Assembly (NCBI GenBank): GCA_000004695.1
Contig: CM000155.2
Location: 1,792,001-1,856,000, forward strand
Direction of reading: 5' to 3'
Origin: Dictyostelium discoideum
Taxonomy: Eukaryota
Length of the DNA stretch: 64,000 nucleotides
Below are positions 29,057-55,413 of the stretch, piece by piece. The notes under the pieces were generated by a model. That model was given only the letters and a program-made list of their open reading frames with translations, did not search any database and was not told the DNA's origin. The translations under genes and the position numbers were made by a program. The stretch's first letter is position 1, and the number at the start of each line of letters is the position of its first letter.

Positions 29057-29452
29057 TAGTATAATAAAATAAAATCACCTTTTTAAACAAAAAAAAATTA
29101 TAATAATAAAAACAAGAAAAAATAAAAATTAATTTATTATATTAAAAAAAAAAGGACCTAATTAGAAAAAAGAAAAAAAAAATTTTTTAAAAAAAACCAA
29201 AAATGGTCATATGCATTATTAAAACTGGATTTTGAAACAGGTGCCTTTTAACTGAAATTCGTAAAAAAAAAAATTTATATTTTATTTTTTTTTTTTTTTA
29301 AAAAATTTTTTTTTTTTTTTTTTTTTATTTTTTTTTTTTTTTTAATTTTTTTTTTTTTTTAATTTTTTATTTTTTTTTTTGATCAACGAGTTTTTTTTTT
29401 CATATAATATATTGTGCACTCATTAGAGACATATAAGAAAAAACAGATCAAA

Positions 29453-34094: not shown

Positions 34095-35141
34095 ATGAAT
34101 AAAATTTTAACTCGTAGTTTTAGTACTGGTGCAAATTTCTTTGCCTCTGGTAAAGGTAAAGCACCAGTTAGAGTTGCCATTACTGGTGCCAGTGGTCAAA
34201 TTGGTTATCAATTATTATTCAGAATTGCCAGTGGTGATATGTTAGGTAAAGATCAACCAATCATTCTCCAATGTTTAGAATTACCAGGTGCAATGAACTC
34301 ATTAAAAGGTGTTTCAATGGAATTGGATGATTGTGCATTCCCATTGCTCAAAGGTATTGTTCAAAGTGATAAACCAGAGGAAGCATTCGCTGGTGCAGAC
34401 TATGCATTATTAGTTGGTGCTCGTCCAAGAAGCAAGGGTATGGAGCGTGGTGACCTTTTAAAAGCAAATGCTGAAATTTTCTCTGTTCAAGGTAAAGCAT
34501 TAGACAAAAGTGCTAATCGTGACACTTTAAGAGTTTTAGTTGTAGGTAACCCAGCCAATACCAACGCATTAATTGCCGCCCGTAATGCACCAAATATTGA
34601 CCCAAAACGTTTCTCTGCCATGACTCGTTTAGATCACAACAGAGGTTTAGCTCAATTAGCCGATAAAACTGGTTCAGCCGTAACTGATATTGAAAAATTC
34701 TGCATTTGGGGTAACCACTCTGCCACCCAATACCCAGATATTAACTTTGGTACCGTCAAAGGTAAATCACTCGTAGATACCATCAACGATCAAAAATGGG
34801 TTAAAGATAACTTTATTCCAACCGTTCAACAAAGAGGTGCCGCTATTATTGCTGCCCGTGGTTTATCATCAGCTGCCTCTGCTGCTTCAGCTGCCATCGA
34901 TCACATGAGAGATTGGACCTATGGTACCAATGGTCAATGGACCTCTATGGCCATTTACTCTGAAGGTGAATATGGTGCCGATAAAGGTCTCTACTTCTCT
35001 TTCCCAGTCATTGTAGATAACAAAGGTAAATACGAAATCGTTAAAGGTCTTAAACTTGATCAATTCTCTCAAGAACGTTTCGATGCTACTCGTAAAGAAT
35101 TATTATCAGAAATGGATGGTGTTAAAGAATTATTACCATAA
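34095..35141 (+). CDS. malate dehydrogenase (NAD, LDH/MDH type 2) with N-terminal extension
   Basis: A 348-aa single exon. It carries the [11 protein letters not shown] Rossmann motif, [43 protein letters not shown] and the catalytic His in GNHS. The N-terminal [19 protein letters not shown] looks like a mitochondrial or other targeting presequence. Confidence 0.95.
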
Positions 35142-43927: not shown

Positions 43928-44360
43928 CTTTTTTTCTTTATTTGTTGTGGAATTGTGAATTAATTTTTTTTTATATGAAAACTAAAAAACTTTTTTTTTT
44001 TTTTTTTTCGAGAATTGCATAAAAAATAATTTCTTTTTTTTTTTTTTCAAACAACTATTTAATTTTATTTATTTTTCATATTATTCTAGTATAAGTAGAG
44101 AACTCAAAAATACACAAAATTATATAAAAGAATGTTTTTTGAATTTTATTTTTTATTTTTTATTTTTTATAATTGTTTTTTTATTTAGAATAACAACAAG
44201 TAGACAATAAAATTTTATATTATTACTTTTGATTAAAACATCTTTTTTGTCCAAACTTTTTTCTAAATCTTTTTTTATTTTATCGTCGGGTTCGTGATTG
44301 ATGACATATTATAAATAAAAAAATCGGATGACGTTATATTTTTTAAAAAAATAATAAAAA

Positions 44361-44431
44361 GCGTATGTGGTCTAGTGGTATGATGCATCCCTGCCACGGA
44401 TGCGAACTGGGTTCGATTCCCAGCATACGCA
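44361..44431 (+). tRNA. tRNA-Gly (anticodon GCC)
   Basis: GCGTATGTGGTCTAGTGGTATGATGCATCCCTGCCACGGATGCGAACTGGGTTCGATTCCCAGCATACGCA. Anticodon stem CATCC/GGATG with loop CTGCCAC, T-arm CTGGGTTCGATTCCCAG. A T6 terminator follows at 44436-44441. Confidence 0.9.
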
Positions 44432-44639
44432 CATCTTTTTTGAAGTTTACAGGATTTCCGAACTTCGGATGGGGTGAAAAATAAAGAATTTTACAAAGTT
44501 TGTCAAAACTGAAAATAAAAACATTTTTTTTGTTTTTCTAAAAAATCAATTAAGTTTTCATTCTTTCAAACAAATACCACATTGTTTTTAATTTGGATAA
44601 AATTATAATTTATAGTAAATAATAAAAAAAAAAAAAAAA

Positions 44640-45480: not shown

Positions 45481-45564
45481 AAAAGCTGTGAATATCAATT
45501 CAAATCAGACGTACAAATATATTTTTCCGAAGTTCGGAAATTTCGAAGCCATTAAAAAAGGTTT

Positions 45565-45635
45565 TGCGTATGCTGGGAATCGAACCCAGTTCGCATCCGT
45601 GGCAGGGATGCATCATACCACTAGACCACATACGC
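45565..45635 (-). tRNA. tRNA-Gly (anticodon GCC), identical inverted copy
   Basis: An exact reverse complement of 44361..44431, placed convergently 1.1 kb away. Confidence 0.9.
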
Positions 45636-45695
45636 TTTTTGATATAATTTTGGAAAAAATAACGAAATGCCATTTTTAAAATATTGTGTATAATA

Positions 45696-48464: not shown

Positions 48465-49967
48465 ATGAATAATAATATTAAACTTAATGAATTAATTTTT
48501 AATGAAATTGAACCATTATTAATTTATAATTGTTCATTTAAAAGGATATTAGAATTATCATTATTATCAAAATCAATATTTAAAAAAATTCAATATCAAA
48601 TTTCAAATCAACAAAAAGAAATTAAATTTAAACCAGAAATTAATGAATTTTTAAATTATATTTATAATTTTAAAAAAAATGATAATAATAATAAATTTAA
48701 TTCATTTAATGAACCAATAATAAATAATGAATTAATTTCAACAATTTTAAATAATAATAATAATTATAAATTTAAATTAATTCAATTTAAAGAAATTGAA
48801 AATTTAAATTGTATTAATAATAATGGTAGTTATCAAGCAAAACAAAATAATGAAAATATTAAAACCAATTTAAAAAGAATTTGTAAAAATTTAAAAACAG
48901 TTTATTATTCAAATTATTTTCCAATTGATACTTTAGATGAAGATCCAACACTTGATAATTTTTTTAATTTTGAAAAAGTTGAACTTTATTGGGACTGTGA
49001 TGAATCACCACCAGAATCATTCATTGATGAATGTGATAACCAAGATGATTATCAATCATTTAATTACTCATTTGAATTTTTAAAAAGATATAAATCAATA
49101 AAGAAAATTTCAATTAGAACTGTAGATAATGAATCAAATTTACATTTAAAAAATTTAAATAATTTATTTAAAAATATTAATAATATTAATCAATTAAATA
49201 AAATTCAATTCAATTATCAAAATACTTCATATAATTTTTTAATAAATGAAAAATTAAATAATATTAAAAATTTAAATTCATTTTCAATTAGATTAGGTAA
49301 TTTTGGTTTAAATATTATAAACGAAGAAAATGAAGAAAATCAAGAAAATGAAGATTTGGAAATATTAAATGAAATAATTAATAATAATTGTGAAAATACT
49401 TCTAAATTAATTGAAATTATTTTTAAAAATATTAACTTATTAAAAAATAATAAATTAAGGAAATTAATAATTAATAAATGTCATTCTGATGATAATGAAT
49501 TTAATTCACCAAATTCAAATAATCCATGTGAATTTTTAAAATTATTATTAAATGAAAATTATTCAATAGAAAATTTAAGAATTTTAGGTTTGGCTGTATA
49601 TGATTTAACTAAATATGATGATTTTAAATTATTATCAGAATTAATTAATAAAAATAATAAAATTAATCAATTAATTACAAATATTCAATCATTTGAACAA
49701 TTTTTAAAACATTGTAATGAAAATAAAAATATTGAAATTTTAAAAATTTCATTAGATAAATATTCAGATAATTTAGAATTATTAAATAATATAAATTGGG
49801 AAAATATTTTAAATTTAATAAATAATAATAAATCATTAAAATCAATTTATTTATATAATAATGATCAATTTGATGAAAATTTACAATTTCTAAATAATTT
49901 AAATTCATTAAAAAATAATAATAATAATAATAATTTAAATATTACAATTTTAAATAATTTTAAATAA
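48465..49967 (+). CDS. Asn/Leu-rich hypothetical protein (500 aa), leucine-rich-repeat-like
   Basis: A single ORF with very high Asn/Ile/Leu/Lys content and recurring L..L..N..L motifs. Its 3' half is duplicated in fragments downstream (51196..51427 and 52431..52880). Confidence 0.55.
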   Translation: MNNNIKLNELIFNEIEPLLIYNCSFKRILELSLLSKSIFKKIQYQISNQQKEIKFKPEINEFLNYIYNFKKNDNNNKFNSFNEPIINNELISTILNNNNNYKFKLIQFKEIENLNCINNNGSYQAKQNNENIKTNLKRICKNLKTVYYSNYFPIDTLDEDPTLDNFFNFEKVELYWDCDESPPESFIDECDNQDDYQSFNYSFEFLKRYKSIKKISIRTVDNESNLHLKNLNNLFKNINNINQLNKIQFNYQNTSYNFLINEKLNNIKNLNSFSIRLGNFGLNIINEENEENQENEDLEILNEIINNNCENTSKLIEIIFKNINLLKNNKLRKLIINKCHSDDNEFNSPNSNNPCEFLKLLLNENYSIENLRILGLAVYDLTKYDDFKLLSELINKNNKINQLITNIQSFEQFLKHCNENKNIEILKISLDKYSDNLELLNNINWENILNLINNNKSLKSIYLYNNDQFDENLQFLNNLNSLKNNNNNNNLNITILNNFK

Positions 49968-50217
49968 TTTCCCAAAAAAAAAAAAAAAAAAAAATAAAAT
50001 TATATTTATAGAATTTTTATAGTGCAATTTTTTTTTTTTTCCCAAAAATAATTTCGAGAGAAGACAAAAATAGTAAAAGTTTTGGTTTACCAAGAAAAGG
50101 TAGAGTAACAAAATATTAAAACAAATTAGGAATGACAAATAGAAATTATAATCTTAGGGAACTATGCTCAAAACAAATAATGATATATTTATTTTAATAG
50201 GGTTTTTTAATTGTTTT

Positions 50218-50580
50218 TTAATTTAAACATGGTTCATCTTTAATGTCTATTTTAGAAAAATTTGAGTAAACTAAATCTATGGCATCTTTAAAGGTTTTTA
50301 GGTGGTTCATATTTGAAATTTGTAAATTTAAATTACTATTTTTTTCAATTAATTCCTTTTTTTCTTCTTCTAGTAATGCTTTACCTTGTTCTAATTCAGA
50401 TTTAACTTGACTTAATTTTTTTATATCACATCCCAAATCTGATATTTCCTTTTATTAATCAAATTCTTTGCAAAAATAATAGAATCACCTTCTTTTGAAT
50501 TTAAATTACGATTCCAACCACGTGGTCTATCTGGAGTTACTCTATTTACTAAATCATCAAAATCTTCCATTTCTAAATAT
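50218..50580 (-). pseudogene. possible small coiled-coil gene disrupted by a frame change
   Basis: The minus strand 50580 to about 50441 reads MEDFDDLVNRVTPDRPRGWNRNLNSKEGDSIIFAKNLINKRKYQIWDVI*. An overlapping frame then continues MGCDIKKLSQVKSELEQGKALLEEEKKELIEKNSNLNLQ... (track ORF 50218..50436). The two parts are offset by one base, and no canonical intron joins them. Confidence 0.2.
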
Positions 50581-50690
50581 TATTTAGTTTTTTTTTAAAA
50601 AAAAATTTATATCAAAAAATAAAGATTTCAAAAAAAATTGATCAAAATTTTTTTAAAATTTTTGAAAATTTTTTAAAATTTTTGGAAAAT

Positions 50691-50900
50691 TTTTTTACAT
50701 AATTTTTACATAACATTTACATTTAAATATTATTTAATATATAGTTATTAAAAAAAAAAAAATGAATTTTAAAGAGCAGAGGCTTCAACATTATAAAATT
50801 TCTAGTGTTCTACCTTTTTCCACTTTTGTAAAAAAAGGGGTATTTTTTAATAACTATATATTAAATAATATTTAAATGTAAATGTTATGTAAAAATTAAT
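50691..50900. repeat. perfect roughly 55-bp inverted repeat (foldback) with about 85-bp spacer
   Basis: The left arm ...aatttttacataacatttacatttaaatattatttaatatatagttattaaaaaa (about 50706..50760) is the exact reverse complement of the right arm ttttttaataactatatattaaataatatttaaatgtaaatgttatgtaaaaatt (about 50845..50899). Confidence 0.8.
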
Positions 50901-51042
50901 TTCCTTTCCTTTTTTTTAATAATTTCCATATTAAAATAACATTTTAATAAAATTACAAATTTCAAAATAAAAAAAAAAAAAAATAAAAAACAAAAAAAAA
51001 AAAAAAAAAATAATAATAATAATGATAGTATAAAATTTCTTT

Positions 51043-51112
51043 CTATGTAACTATTTGTAAAATAAACTTTTCAAATAAATTAAAATTATTTATTTGAAAA
51101 GTTTATTTTACA
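51043..51112. repeat. 30-bp perfect palindrome arms with about 9-nt loop
   Basis: ctatttgtaaaataaacttttcaaataaat + taaaattat + ttatttgaaaagtttattttacaaatag. Confidence 0.8.
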
Positions 51113-51195
51113 AATAGTTAAATAATTATTTTAATGTATATTTTTCAAATTAATTATTTTTAAAATTGGAAGCTTGGCCCAGAAATTATATTTTT

Positions 51196-52880
51196 TGGTT
51201 TAAATATGATAAATGAAGAAAATGAAGAAAATGAAGATTTGGAAATATTAAATGAAATAATTAATAATGTGAAAATACTTCTAAATTAATTGAAATTATT
51301 TTTAAAAATATTAACTTATTAAAAAATAAAAATAATAAATTAATAATTAATAATTGATAAAGAAATTAATAATTAATAAATGTCATTCTGATGATAATGA
51401 ATTTAATTCACCAAATTCAAATAATCCTGTAACAACTGGTGGTCGGTTTCATCAGTGTTAGTTTTTCCTAATGATTTTTTTATTGTGTTGGTTATTGCTG
51501 CTGAAGTTATTGGTGTTGTAATGTTTGGGTGATGATGGTGGTGTTGAATGGTTATTTAATTGTTGTTGAGATTGTTGATTTATTAATTGAATGTGTTGTT
51601 GAAGAAGTTGATTTTGTTTATCTATTACCTGCTGATGTTCCCTTATTTGACGTTGCTGTTCATTGAATGTTGATACCTTTGGTTGTTGTTGTTGTTCCTC
51701 ATTATCCTGTTGTTGAGATTCATTATTATCAATATCTTCATTATTATTATTGTTGTTATTATTATTATTATTTGACATTCTTTTAAAATAAATTATTTAA
51801 TAAAATTGGGTTATTTATTATTATTAATTTAATTTATTGTTTTAATATTACTGAATTTATTTATTTTATTATTATAAAAATAAATGATTAATTATTTAAG
51901 AAATAAATGTACACATATATTTAATTGATGACCATATCCCTATCGCGTTTTTATTATTTTTAACTATTTATTACTGAGGTTAAATTAGAAACCTAGTTTC
52001 TTTTTATAGTCCTCAGATTTGAGCGAACTCAAATCTGTTAACTACTCCAACCTCAGCAGATAGGGTTAGATCCAATTTAAACTACAATATTATATTATTT
52101 TAATTTTTAATTAAATTATTTTTAAATTTATATTATTATTTTATATGATGATTTTGTGTGTGTGACATTTTTAATATCTGGTATATAATATCTATTGTGA
52201 AAACTTTTTTTTATTATTTTCTGAATTGTGTGTGTTATAATAAAATGTTTAAACAAAACTATATTCTAAATTATTATTATTTATTTTTTTGAATTATTAT
52301 TTAGTTGTGTTTAGTGAGTTTATTATATAAAATGAAACAATTTATTAAAATAAATTAAGTTAGTAATAATTAATATTGAATTATTAATTCAATATTAATA
52401 GTTATTTTTAAATGTTCTGTTTAGAACATTAAATGATAATTATTCAATGGCAAATTAAAGAATTTTATTTTTAGCTGTATATGATTCAACTAAAAATGAT
52501 GATGATTTTAAATTATTATCAGAGTTTATTAATAAAAATAATAAAATTAATCAATTTGTTACACATATTCACTCATTTGAACAATTTTTAAAACATTGTA
52601 ATGAAAATAAAAATATTGAAATTTTAAAAATTTCATTAGATAAATATTCAGATAATTTAGAATTATTAAATAATATAAATTTGGAAAATATTTTAAATTT
52701 AATAAATAATAATAAATCATTAAAATCAATTTATTTATATAATAATGATCAATTTGATGAAAATTTACAATTTCTAAATAATTTAAATTCATTAAAAAAT
52801 TATAATAATAATTTAAATTTTAAAATTTTAAATTTAAATAATTTTTAAAAAAAAAAAAATTATATTTATAGAATTTTTAT
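51196..52880 (+). pseudogene. fragmented duplicate of the 3' half of the 48465..49967 gene, interrupted by a roughly 1 kb insertion
   Basis: Segment 51196..51427 is about 90% identical to 49301..49530 and lacks one 9-bp gaagaaaat unit. Segment 52431..52880 is about 90% identical to 49545..50030, including the stop codon and 3' flank through tatagaatttttatag. The two pieces are contiguous in the original gene but are separated here by 51428..52430, which contains a minus-strand Q/N-rich ORF (51458..51778) and a 10-bp-stem hairpin cagatttgag-cgaa-ctcaaatctg at about 52006..52029. The identical antisense track ORFs 49675..49908 and 52559..52792 reflect this duplication. Confidence 0.7.
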
Positions 52881-52976
52881 AGCCATAATAATTTGTTTTT
52901 TTTTTTTTTTTTCCTCGTTTTAAAGTTCTTAAAATTTATTTAACCAAGAATTAAAAAATTTTAAAATAAAAGGAAT

Positions 52977-53103: not shown

Positions 53104-54081
53104 ATGAATAATGTTAGCGATGAAGAAATAGATGATGTTTCAGATGATTATGTTGGTGAGAAGCCAAAGAATGACGAGGATTTTTATAGTGCAGATAGTG
53201 ATATTGAAAAGTTAACTCACAAAAACGAGGATGACATCGAACCAAATCCTTCACTCTCTCAAAAAGATGATGAAAAAATACAAAAACAACAACAACAACA
53301 GCAACAGCAACAACAACAACAACAACAACAAAGTAAAGATATTAGCATCAATTTGGACGAATATCAACAAGAAACAGATAGTGAGGAGTATGATTCTGAT
53401 TATATCGATGATATGGATTCTGACGAATATGAAGAAAAGTGTGAAAATGATAGAGAAAAAGACAATTTATATGAATTAGAAAATGAAGAAAGAGATGAAA
53501 AATTTGGTATTGAATACATTAATACCAATACTGCAAATAAAAATAATAATAATAATAATAATAACAATATAGTGGAAGTTTCACTATATGAAAGATTACT
53601 AAAAAGAGATTTCAATAGATACAATAAAAGTGATATAAACACTAAAAATAATATAAATAATAAAAATAATATTAATAATAATAATAATAATAATAATAAC
53701 AATAATAATAATAATAAAAGAAAAGATTTATATATATATAGTAGTAGCGATAAAGAATTAAACAATAATATAATTAAAAGTTCTTTATCTAATCTCTTTT
53801 TCGAAGAAGAGTGTGAGGCTGATAATGAGGAAGAAGAAGATGAAGAAGGTGATGATAAAGGTATTAAACAAAGAATTAAAAGATATCAAGATATTAAAAA
53901 TAGTAAATTAATAATTAAAAGAGCAAAAAGTTTAACACAAGGTATCATATTGGATCCTATCGATCCAACAATTAAAAATAGTTTTCAACAATATCTAATT
54001 CAAAGAGAATTAAAACAAATAAAAGTAAAAAATAATAAAAATAATAGTAATAATGATAGTAATGACGGCAGTAGTAATAAT

Positions 54082-54113
<32 letters not shown>

Positions 54114-55413
54114 TAACGGTGAGTCAGTTGATAATCAAAATGATAATAAAAATAATAATGATGAAAAAACTGTTACAATAAAAGAACCAACTCCACCACC
54201 AACACCACTAAAAAAAAAGAGAAAATCAAAATCAAAACAAGCAGAAATTGAAGTTGTCCCCTTTACAAGATCAATTTCATCAATACCAGACTATCAAAAT
54301 TTTTATAATAATAATTCAAAAAAAGTTGAAACCTTATTAAATTGGGATACTTTAAATATTAAAAATTCAATTACAAATAAAAATAATAGTATAAATATAA
54401 ATAATAGTAATAATTATAATTATAATAATAAAGGAGAATTTTTAAAATTTAAAAAAGAAGAAAAAGAAATAATATATTATTATATGATTTATTATTCATC
54501 AAGTTTATTATTTTATAGGTGTAATGAATTATGGAAGATGATTTCAAATCATTTAGATAGTAAACCATCACCATTAAAAATTGGAATTTTTATAACAAAT
54601 AAATTAGAATCTAATCAATCTTTTAATGAATGGAGTTTAAAATGTAAAAATAAATATTTCAATTTAAATAGTAATAGTAATAGTAATGGTGATAGTAATA
54701 GTAATATTCAAGAATCAATAGATTTTAAATTACCACCACATTTACAATATCCAATATCAAATTTATCATTTAAAGATAAACAAATTAAAATTATTGAAAA
54801 ACAATTATTAGAATTAAATGGAATTTATATGAAATCACCAATAACGATTGGAACAAAAGAATTCAATTATAATAAAAATAATAATAATAACAATGGGTCA
54901 ATTGGTATTGAAATTACAAATGATATTAAAGATAGTAAAAAATATAGATTCGTTGCATCAAATGAAGATTTATTAATTGAACAAATTAATACAGATTTAT
55001 TATTAGAACAAGAGAAAGATAATATTAAAAAAGAATTTAATGAATTTGAAGGTGGTGGTAGTATTGTACCACAAGTATTATCAGGAAAAGGTTTAGAAAG
55101 TTTATTAACATCAAAAGAGTTTAATCATATTACACCATATCCAACAGTTTTCATTGATATGGCAGAAGCATTAAGAGATTGGTTAAAACCAGTAGTTCAA
55201 GAATTATCATTTTTAAAACCAGTCATTCACCATCAACATGCTGATAATGAAGAAATCACAGTTGAACAAGTATTAGAATCATTAAGAGTTACTCAAAATT
55301 TACCAAATGAAAATTGGAAACCTTCAAAAAGATATAAAAAATTTTATGATGAAAAAGATAAATCAACAAATAACAAAATTGATGTTTCTATATTATTTAA
55401 AAATTTAAAATAA
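53104..55413 (+). CDS. hypothetical acidic low-complexity protein (769 aa)
   Basis: A single ORF. The N-terminus is acidic (DEEIDDVSDDY...), followed by poly-Q and several poly-N tracts. A less repetitive C-terminal region reads ...GGGSIVPQVLSGKGLESLLTSKEFNHITPYPTVFIDMAEALRDWLKPVVQELSFLKPVIHHQH.... I recognised no domain. Confidence 0.55.

What the first reader, a model, noticed from the sequence alone, without database searches (positions are those of the whole stretch)
50691..51112. Perfect foldback inverted repeat (about 55-bp arms) plus a separate 30-bp-arm palindrome in a rearranged intergenic region
Perfect inverted repeats of this length do not arise by chance even in AT-rich DNA. The first (arms about 50706..50760 and 50845..50899, about 85-bp loop) has the architecture of a foldback/MITE-like element or a cruciform-forming site. 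The second (51043..51112) is an almost loop-less hairpin. Both sit just upstream of the fragmented duplicate of the neighbouring gene, so they may mark breakpoints of the rearrangement.
Basis: seen in the sequence. Interest (0 to 1): 0.5.

Follow-up and report, generated by a model that had tools for sequence, protein, structure and literature searches.

The report
Two local palindromes in young Dictyostelium DNA
Two real, near-perfect AT-rich inverted repeats sit in a stretch of intergenic DNA found only in the laboratory lineage of the social amoeba Dictyostelium discoideum; they look like local copying errors (template switching), not jumping genes, so the finding is genuine but fairly ordinary.

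Summary
The window is Dictyostelium discoideum AX4 chromosome 6. Both repeats exist. IR1 has 56-nt arms (50700-50755 / 50843-50898), 100% complementary, with an 87-nt spacer. IR2 has 37-nt arms (51044-51080 / 51088-51124) with one mismatch and a 7-nt loop. Shuffles give perfect arms of at most 23 nt, and a separately deposited assembly has both repeats unchanged.

They lie in 1.18 kb of DNA (N, 50020-51195). N is followed by a decayed copy (A') of the last ~716 bp of the F-box gene DDB_G0292612. Two diverged relatives lack window 50041-52427 altogether. A' is itself split by a truncated ~1.15-kb transposon, which elsewhere shows terminal inverted repeats and 5-bp target-site duplications.

IR1 and IR2 show none of those transposon marks:
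- no target-site duplication beyond a self-complementary TA;
- no second copy in about 115 kb of related sequence;
- an 11-bp tandem array that runs across IR1's left edge, so the right arm looks like a partial inverted copy of local sequence.

They are 60 bp or more from the rearrangement junctions and are cleaner than the age of the duplication predicts. They are absent from the published Dictyostelium miRNA tables I could check and from Rfam.

Best reading: local template-switch inverted duplications, probably without function. A whole-genome copy count and small-RNA mapping could not be done.

The parts
50700..50755 (.). IR1 left arm (56 nt, 7% G+C); probably the template copy
   Evidence: its first 23 nt lie inside the local 11-bp tandem array
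50756..50842 (.). IR1 spacer (87 nt, 28% G+C). It has no significant structure of its own and holds a 37-codon ORF of no known family.
50843..50898 (.). IR1 right arm, an exact reverse complement of the left arm; probably the derived copy
50692..50722 (.). 11-bp tandem array (TTTTTACATAA, 2.8 copies). It starts 8 nt outside IR1's left edge and continues a 10/20-bp array at 50644-50707.
51044..51080 (.). IR2 left arm (37 nt; 51048-51080 pairs perfectly)
51081..51087 (.). IR2 loop (7 nt)
51088..51124 (.). IR2 right arm (one mismatch, G51047 opposite A51121)
50020..51195 (.). N: 1.18 kb of DNA private to the AX4 lineage and of unknown origin. It holds IR1, IR2 and the orphan gene. It is absent from L002 and L003 and has no match in L004 or L005.
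50218..50571 (-). DDB_G0292614: orphan 93-aa gene model with one intron; IR1 and IR2 lie upstream of its ATG
49304..50019 (+). A: the 3' ~716 bp of the F-box gene DDB_G0292612 plus its 3' flank; source of the duplicate
51196..51427 (+). A' part 1: decayed duplicate of A (frameshifting 4-bp deletion, 23-bp tandem insertion)
51428..52427 (-). INS: truncated copy of a ~1.15-kb transposon, inserted in A'. In other copies the ends are TGTAACAA...TTGTTACA with 5-bp target-site duplications.
52428..52904 (+). A' part 2: the rest of the duplicate, running on into the ancestral downstream DNA

Best explanation
IR1 and IR2 are local inverted duplications made by template switching: during replication or repair the polymerase briefly copies the opposite or nascent strand and then returns. 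They arose in a fast-evolving, AT-rich intergenic segment that exists only in the AX4 lineage. For IR1, the left arm is native sequence, part of an 11-bp tandem array. The right arm is a 56-nt reverse-complement copy of it laid down 87 bp away. IR2 is the same kind of event with almost no spacer. They are single-locus structural features, not mobile elements. They most likely arose after the partial duplication of the F-box gene rather than with it, and probably have no selected function. Their likely consequences are hairpin or cruciform potential and local instability. Shown: the repeats exist and are non-random; the DNA around them is lineage-specific; target-site duplications and extra copies are absent from what could be searched; the tandem array crosses IR1's edge; the arms are cleaner than the age of the duplication predicts. 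Inferred: the template-switch mechanism, the direction of copying, and the lack of function.
For: The arms are perfect with sharp boundaries on both sides. This is the signature of one templated copying event, not of slow convergence. The mechanism is documented to create perfect hairpins in one step (PMC8794818, PMC5453318, PMC10710096; found). The 11-bp array TTTTTACATAA (50692-50722) starts 8 nt outside IR1's left edge, and the right arm carries only the truncated mirror image. There is no target-site duplication beyond a self-complementary TA. No other copy of either repeat was found in the rest of the 64-kb window or in 52 kb of other D. discoideum-complex loci. N is absent from two diverged relatives, in which the F-box gene is followed directly by the next gene. 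Site patterns place the duplication on the AX4 branch: 5 derived sites shared by A and A', 23 private to A', 5 private to A, over 604 columns. At 3.8% neutral change per copy since then, arms of that age should differ at about 4.3 positions in IR1 (0 observed) and 2.8 in IR2 (1 observed). Every perfect inverted repeat of 15 nt or more found in the AX4, L002 and L003 loci lies wholly in lineage-private DNA, and each lineage has its own. Such palindromes therefore arise repeatedly and do not last.
Against: No ancestral allele lacking one arm is available, because N is missing entirely from the outgroups. The template-switch model therefore cannot be tested point by point. The full 34-Mb genome could not be searched, so a small family of copies elsewhere is not excluded. 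Perfect arms could also be kept by selection or by gene conversion between arms rather than by youth. Two such repeats within 425 bp is more clustering than a purely random mutational process would suggest. The age argument rests on small counts and assumes equal neutral rates in A' and N.
Confidence: 0.55

Rival explanations
1. The repeats were made in the same complex event that produced N and the duplicate A', for example replication-based repair with several template switches that laid down filler DNA. On this view they are scars of the rearrangement.
For: Both lie in the DNA that separates the two gene copies and that relatives lack. IR2 ends about 70 bp from the N/A' junction. An 8-nt palindrome also spans the right junction of the transposon copy at 52427/52428.
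Against: Neither repeat sits on a junction. A' has 3.8% private substitutions since the duplication, so arms of that age should show about 7 mismatches in total; 1 is seen. N holds a spliced gene model with coding-like composition, which is unlike short templated filler.
Confidence: 0.13
2. IR1 and IR2 are small non-autonomous transposons (MITE or foldback type) that inserted into N.
For: The architecture is right: long terminal inverted repeats around a short unrelated core. Both repeats start with TA and end with TA, which would fit a TA target duplication of the Tc1/mariner type. IR2's left end reads TGTAAC, the first six bases of the terminal repeat of the neighbouring transposon family.
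Against: TA is self-complementary, so it cannot be told apart from two more paired bases. No 3- to 10-bp direct repeat flanks either element. No second copy turned up in about 115 kb of D. discoideum-complex DNA. IR1's left boundary falls inside a tandem repeat unit that continues into the flank. The TGTAAC match was noticed afterwards, is only 6 nt long, and no 5-bp duplication flanks IR2.
Confidence: 0.12
3. They are hairpin-RNA genes: transcripts through IR1 or IR2 fold into perfect 56-bp or 33-37-bp stems that a Dicer-like enzyme cuts into small RNAs (young miRNA-like or endogenous siRNA loci).
For: The predicted RNA hairpins are very stable (-74.1 and -37.7 kcal/mol, z about -12.5). IR2 (81 nt) is the size of a pre-miRNA. 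Nearly all amoebozoan miRNAs are reported to be recent innovations (PMC11014262), and template switching is a documented source of new miRNA hairpins (PMC10710096). On the minus strand, a roughly 48-nt T-rich tract ending in G at 50963 lies 65 nt upstream of IR1. This resembles the pri-miRNA start motif described in PMC6161686.
Against: No tile of either arm occurs in the supplementary miRNA tables of Liao 2018. The tiles tried in Edelbroek 2024 were also absent; for IR1 that search did not cover every tile. Rfam gives nothing. Perfect stems fail the 'at least 1 mismatch' criterion listed in those tables. T-rich tracts are everywhere in this genome. There is no cross-species conservation to test, because N is lineage-specific.
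Confidence: 0.1
4. They are cis-regulatory or protein-binding palindromes in the upstream region of DDB_G0292614.
For: IR1 lies 129-327 bp and IR2 473-553 bp upstream of that gene's ATG at 50571. A TATAAA followed by a T-run sits 35-40 nt upstream of the ATG.
Against: The gene is an orphan with no homologue among 5.8 billion proteins, and it was not called at all in the newer assembly. Arms of 56 nt are far longer than any transcription-factor site. No conservation is available.
Confidence: 0.05
5. Assembly or cloning artefact.
For: Palindromes are prone to cloning and assembly errors, and the reference is a Sanger-era assembly (general knowledge).
Against: A separately deposited assembly (GCA_054883475.1) has the identical sequence through both repeats.
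Confidence: 0.01

Closest known systems
Template-switch mutations that create perfect hairpins in one step (Loytynoja and Goldman 2017, PMC5453318; Monttinen and Loytynoja 2022, PMC8794818; de novo miRNA hairpins, PMC10710096)
   Same: A perfect reverse-complement copy of nearby sequence, sharp boundaries, no target-site duplication, single locus, lineage-specific.
   Different: Published cases are mostly arms of 10-30 nt; IR1's 56-nt arms with an 87-nt spacer are at the large end. The ancestral state needed for the four-point test is not available here.
Palindromic AT-rich repeats (PATRRs) of human chromosomes 11, 17 and 22 (own knowledge; general reviews PMC7999016, PMC3176155 found)
   Same: Very AT-rich, near-perfect palindromes in non-coding DNA that are predicted to extrude cruciforms. 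IR2 has almost no spacer.
   Different: PATRRs are several hundred bp long and carry rearrangement breakpoints at their centres. IR2 is 81 bp, IR1 has a long spacer that disfavours extrusion, and no junction lies within either.
MITEs and foldback transposons
   Same: Long terminal inverted repeats around a short non-coding core; total size of 81-199 bp.
   Different: No target-site duplication, no further copies found, and the terminus is not discrete from the flank.
Young hairpin small-RNA loci (proto-miRNA or hairpin siRNA genes born from inverted duplications)
   Same: Long, perfectly paired, lineage-specific hairpins in intergenic DNA.
   Different: No small-RNA evidence, no recognisable target, and not in the published D. 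discoideum miRNA tables I could check.

Membership tests
MITE / foldback transposon | Terminal inverted repeats | tested here: met
   Met trivially: 56-nt and 37-nt arms
MITE / foldback transposon | Target-site duplication flanking the termini | tested here: not met
   Only a self-complementary TA, which is uninformative; no 3- to 12-bp direct repeat
MITE / foldback transposon | Multiple dispersed copies in the genome | tested here: inconclusive
   None in the 64-kb window or in loci L002-L005, and none in the metagenome, prokaryote or viral collections. The 34-Mb genome itself could not be searched.
MITE / foldback transposon | Termini discrete from the flanking DNA, with empty sites in other genomes | tested here: not met
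   An 11-bp tandem array crosses IR1's left edge. No empty site can be examined, because the whole of N is missing from the relatives.
Template-switch inverted duplication | Exact reverse-complement copy of nearby sequence with sharp ends and no target duplication | tested here: met
Template-switch inverted duplication | Ancestral sequence lacking the copy, explained by a four-point switch model | not testable with these tools
   The outgroups lack N, and the only other assembly that carries N is identical
Dictyostelium miRNA gene | Stable hairpin precursor | tested here: met
Dictyostelium miRNA gene | Imperfect duplex (at least 1 mismatch and at least 16 paired, as listed in the tables of PMC11014262) | tested here: not met
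   IR1's stem is perfect. IR2's only mismatch is at the base of the stem.
Dictyostelium miRNA gene | 5p and 3p small-RNA reads; Dicer (DrnB) dependence | not testable with these tools
   No read data available. Not in the supplementary tables of PMC6161686, nor among the arm tiles tried in PMC11014262.
PATRR-type cruciform palindrome | AT-rich near-perfect palindrome with little or no spacer | tested here: met
   Met for IR2 (11% G+C, 7-nt loop). Not met for IR1 (87-nt spacer).
PATRR-type cruciform palindrome | Several hundred bp long, with rearrangement breakpoints at the centre | tested here: not met
   IR2 is 81 bp; the junctions are at about 50019/50020 and 51195/51196
Cut-and-paste transposon (applies to INS, 51428-52427, not to the IRs) | Terminal inverted repeats, target-site duplications and several copies | tested here: met
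   TGTAACAA...TTGTTACA ends; 5-bp duplications AAACT (L004) and CAATT (L005); at least 3 copies at 76-97% identity

The most novel reading that the evidence does not exclude
IR1 and/or IR2 are newborn hairpin small-RNA genes. On this reading, template switching in lineage-specific DNA created perfect stems that are transcribed (for IR1 from the T-rich/G motif at about 50963 on the minus strand) and diced. This would catch de novo birth of a miRNA-like or siRNA locus in Amoebozoa, where nearly all miRNAs are reported to be recent innovations.
Probability: 0.07. Interest if true: 0.55.

Novelty: new member of a known kind. Interest (0 to 1): 0.22.

Why it matters
On its own it matters little: it is a clean example of how perfect palindromes arise and sit in young, AT-rich intergenic DNA. 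Its modest value is as a dated case. The partial gene duplication next to it gives a local clock, and a true transposon beside it serves as a positive control for mobility. Each of the three lineages compared carries its own private perfect palindrome, which suggests a high birth-and-death rate of hairpins in this species complex. That turnover would be the raw material from which the fast-evolving Dictyostelium miRNA repertoire could be drawn. If small RNAs map to the arms, the locus would become a useful model of hairpin-gene birth.

Tried and rejected
1. N as a diverged inverted copy of the F-box gene (a duplication / inverted-triplication structure). Weak BLAST hits in reverse orientation did not exceed control segments in local alignment, and the proteins are unrelated. 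Rejected.
2. A diverged third, direct copy of the IR1 arm at 50910-50982 (family D3). Score 44 against shuffles of 33 +/- 5.5, maximum 59. Not significant.
3. A' extending left as far as IR2. The alignment left of 51196 is not significant; 29 of 300 shuffles reach its score.
4. Known RNA families. Rfam gave nothing at gathering or E-value thresholds except chance matches.
5. Published miRNA tables. No arm tile was found.
6. Literature on the gene identifiers, on Dictyostelium palindromes and on MITEs. Nothing relevant. Glockner 2001, the repeat catalogue, is not held, so the transposon family of INS could not be named.
7. Exact-match scans of the metagenome, prokaryotic-genome and viral collections for arm and spacer sequences: 0 hits. 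This was expected, because none of them holds this eukaryote.
8. Pfam on the small ORFs: nothing above the cut-offs.
9. The bacterial promoter/terminator scan does not apply to a eukaryote.
10. The other high-scoring hairpin windows are not comparable features. 34121-34240 is a protein-coding region (my reading of the translation: malate dehydrogenase-like, not tested). The 24-nt 'repeat' at 29173-29315 is A/T homopolymer runs.

Full report
WHAT THE WINDOW IS. G+C is 13-33% throughout. The ORF at 48465-49967 is identical to XP_629523, the F-box protein DDB_G0292612 of Dictyostelium discoideum AX4, on a contig of 3,602,379 bp that I take to be chromosome 6. This is a eukaryotic nuclear genome, so the bacterial gene, promoter and phage tools are of little use here.

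- IR1 has arms at 50700-50755 and 50843-50898: 56 nt, 100% complementary, 87 nt apart. Complementarity stops abruptly at both the outer and the inner ends.
- IR2 has arms at 51044-51080 and 51088-51124: 37 nt with one mismatch (33 nt perfect) and a 7-nt loop.
- In 60 shuffles that keep local composition, the longest perfect arm averaged 15.2 +/- 1.5 nt, maximum 23.
- As single strands both fold far better than shuffles. IR1 gives -74.1 kcal/mol as RNA (z -12.7) and -56.3 as DNA (z -12.0); IR2 gives -37.7 (z -12.5). The IR1 spacer has no structure of its own (z 0.0 and -1.2).
- Apart from an inverted pair of tRNA-Gly genes, nothing comparable exists in the 64 kb.
- A separately deposited assembly (GCA_054883475.1, locus L001) carries both repeats unchanged. 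Across the 13.5 kb compared it shows no substitutions, only indels, most of them homopolymer-length. An assembly artefact is very unlikely.

THE SETTING. Two diverged members of the species complex were compared: L002 at about 91% identity and L003 ('D. cf. discoideum') at about 87%. In both, the F-box gene is followed within about 200-330 bp by the orthologue of the gene at 53104-55413. Window 50041-52427 has no counterpart in either. Alignment resolves the AX4 arrangement into four parts:
- A (49304-50019): the last ~716 bp of the F-box gene plus its 3' flank.
- N (50020-51195): unrelated DNA holding the orphan gene model DDB_G0292614 on the minus strand, IR1 and IR2.
- A' (51196-51427 plus 52428-52904): a decayed copy of A with a frameshifting 4-bp deletion and a 23-bp insertion.
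- INS (51428-52427): 1 kb that interrupts A' and replaces 21 bp of it.
DDB_G0292614 has no homologue among 5.8 billion proteins, and N matches nothing else available. Site patterns over 604 aligned columns show 5 derived states shared by A and A', 23 private to A' and 5 private to A. The duplication therefore happened on the AX4 branch, and A' has since drifted by 3.8%.

A POSITIVE CONTROL FOR MOBILITY. The 106-codon ORF in INS has paralogues elsewhere in D. discoideum. Fetching two of them showed that INS is one copy of a dispersed element of about 1.15 kb, 76-97% identical between copies. The other copies end in TGTAACAA...TTGTTACA and are flanked by different 5-bp target-site duplications, AAACT in L004 and CAATT in L005. 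The window copy has lost its last ~55 bp. This is what a real transposon looks like in this genome.

IR1 AND IR2 DO NOT LOOK LIKE THAT.
- No direct repeat flanks either one, apart from a TA that is self-complementary and so cannot be distinguished from two more paired bases.
- No further copy occurs in the window or in the other four loci, about 115 kb in all.
- Tandem Repeats Finder places an 11-bp array (TTTTTACATAA, 2.8 copies) at 50692-50722. It starts 8 nt outside IR1's left edge and continues a 10/20-bp array that begins at 50644. The left arm is thus part of its surroundings, and the right arm is a truncated mirror image of them.
This fits a copy templated on local sequence, not an inserted unit.

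TIMING AND BREAKPOINTS. The junctions of N lie at about 50019/50020 and 51195/51196. IR1 is hundreds of bp from both, and IR2 ends about 70 bp from the second. If the arms had drifted independently since the duplication at A's neutral-copy rate (3.8% per copy), IR1 should show about 4.3 mismatches and IR2 about 2.8. The observed counts are 0 and 1, for which the Poisson probability of at most 1 given 7.1 expected is about 0.007 (my calculation). The repeats are therefore younger than the duplication, or are kept clean by conversion or selection. 'Scars of the breakpoints' is the weaker reading.

RNA-GENE READINGS. Rfam has nothing in this region. Ten-base tiles of both arms, written as DNA and, for IR2, also as RNA, are absent from the supplementary miRNA tables of Liao et al. 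2018. The tiles tried in Edelbroek et al. 2024 were also absent; for IR1 that search did not cover every tile. The 2024 tables list 'at least 1 mismatch' among their criteria, which perfect stems fail. Against dismissing the idea, that paper reports that nearly all amoebozoan miRNAs are recent innovations, and template switching is a published route to new hairpins. On the minus strand, a long T-rich tract ending in G lies 65 nt upstream of IR1 and resembles the pri-miRNA start motif. Such tracts are ubiquitous here, so this is only a lead.

A WIDER PATTERN. I scanned the three orthologous loci for perfect inverted repeats of 15 nt or more with a gap of 100 nt or less. All five found lie wholly in DNA private to one lineage: IR1, IR2 and a 15-nt one in INS (AX4), a 25-nt one (L002), and an 18-nt one (L003). 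Private DNA makes up 17-30% of each locus. This is partly confounded, because private DNA is also the most AT-rich and non-coding. It still fits frequent birth and rapid decay of palindromes in this species complex. In a 120-nt sliding fold, 7 of the 13 windows most structured for their G+C content lie between 51001 and 52480, within or overlapping the AX4-private DNA.

CONCLUSION. Both repeats are real. As far as can be tested, each occurs at this one locus only and shows no sign of mobility. They are best explained as template-switch inverted duplications in young intergenic DNA (confidence about 0.55). The rivals are scars of the original rearrangement (0.13), small transposons (0.12), hairpin small-RNA genes (0.10), regulatory palindromes (0.05) and artefact (0.01). 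The two analyses that would settle it, a whole-genome copy count and small-RNA mapping, were not possible with these tools.

Noticed in passing
window 51428-52427; L004 5164-6326; L005 5234-6190: A dispersed element of about 1.15 kb with 8-bp terminal inverted repeats (TGTAACAA...TTGTTACA) and 5-bp target-site duplications (AAACT, CAATT). There are at least three sequenced copies, plus AX4 chromosome-2 gene DDB_G0271474. It carries a small Q/N-rich ORF annotated only as 'hypothetical protein'. The TG...CA ends and 5-bp duplication recall integrase-type elements (Tdd or thug families; from memory, not tested).
   Followed up: partly
window 51935-52072 (minus strand); L004 5708-5853; L005 5786-5931: A G+C-richer block (33%) inside that element folds into a long nested stem (-48 kcal/mol, z -6.8 on the minus strand). 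The minus strand folds better through G-U pairs and has a UUCG loop. It is well conserved in the three copies, with no compensatory changes. It is not in Rfam, and its tiles are absent from the supplementary files held for the Liao 2018 and Meier 2016 miRNA papers. It could be a transposon-borne hairpin RNA.
   Followed up: partly
window 50218-50571 (minus): DDB_G0292614 is a 93-aa orphan with one intron that lies wholly in lineage-private DNA. It has no homologue in 5.8 billion proteins and was not called in the newer assembly of the same lineage. It may be a de novo gene or a spurious model.
   Followed up: partly
window 44319-44444 and 45552-45677; L002 1296-1381 and 2224-2309: An inverted pair of tRNA-Gly(GCC) genes: 76 nt identical, with arms of 126 nt at 88% and 1.1 kb between them. 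The pair is conserved in L002 with a different spacing. L003 gave no exact inverted repeat of 18 nt or more there.
   Followed up: no
L002 3327-3395; L003 3334-3374: Each relative has its own perfect AT-rich palindrome (25-nt arms with a 19-nt gap; 18-nt arms with a 5-nt gap). Both lie in lineage-private intergenic DNA in the intergenic tRNA-gene region and have no counterpart in the other genomes.
   Followed up: partly
window 52412-52431: A small palindrome, AATGTTCT-GTTT-AGAACATT, spans the junction at 52427/52428 between the truncated transposon and the resumed A' sequence. The TTAAATG motif occurs on both sides of it. This may be microhomology at the deletion that removed the transposon's end.
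   Followed up: no
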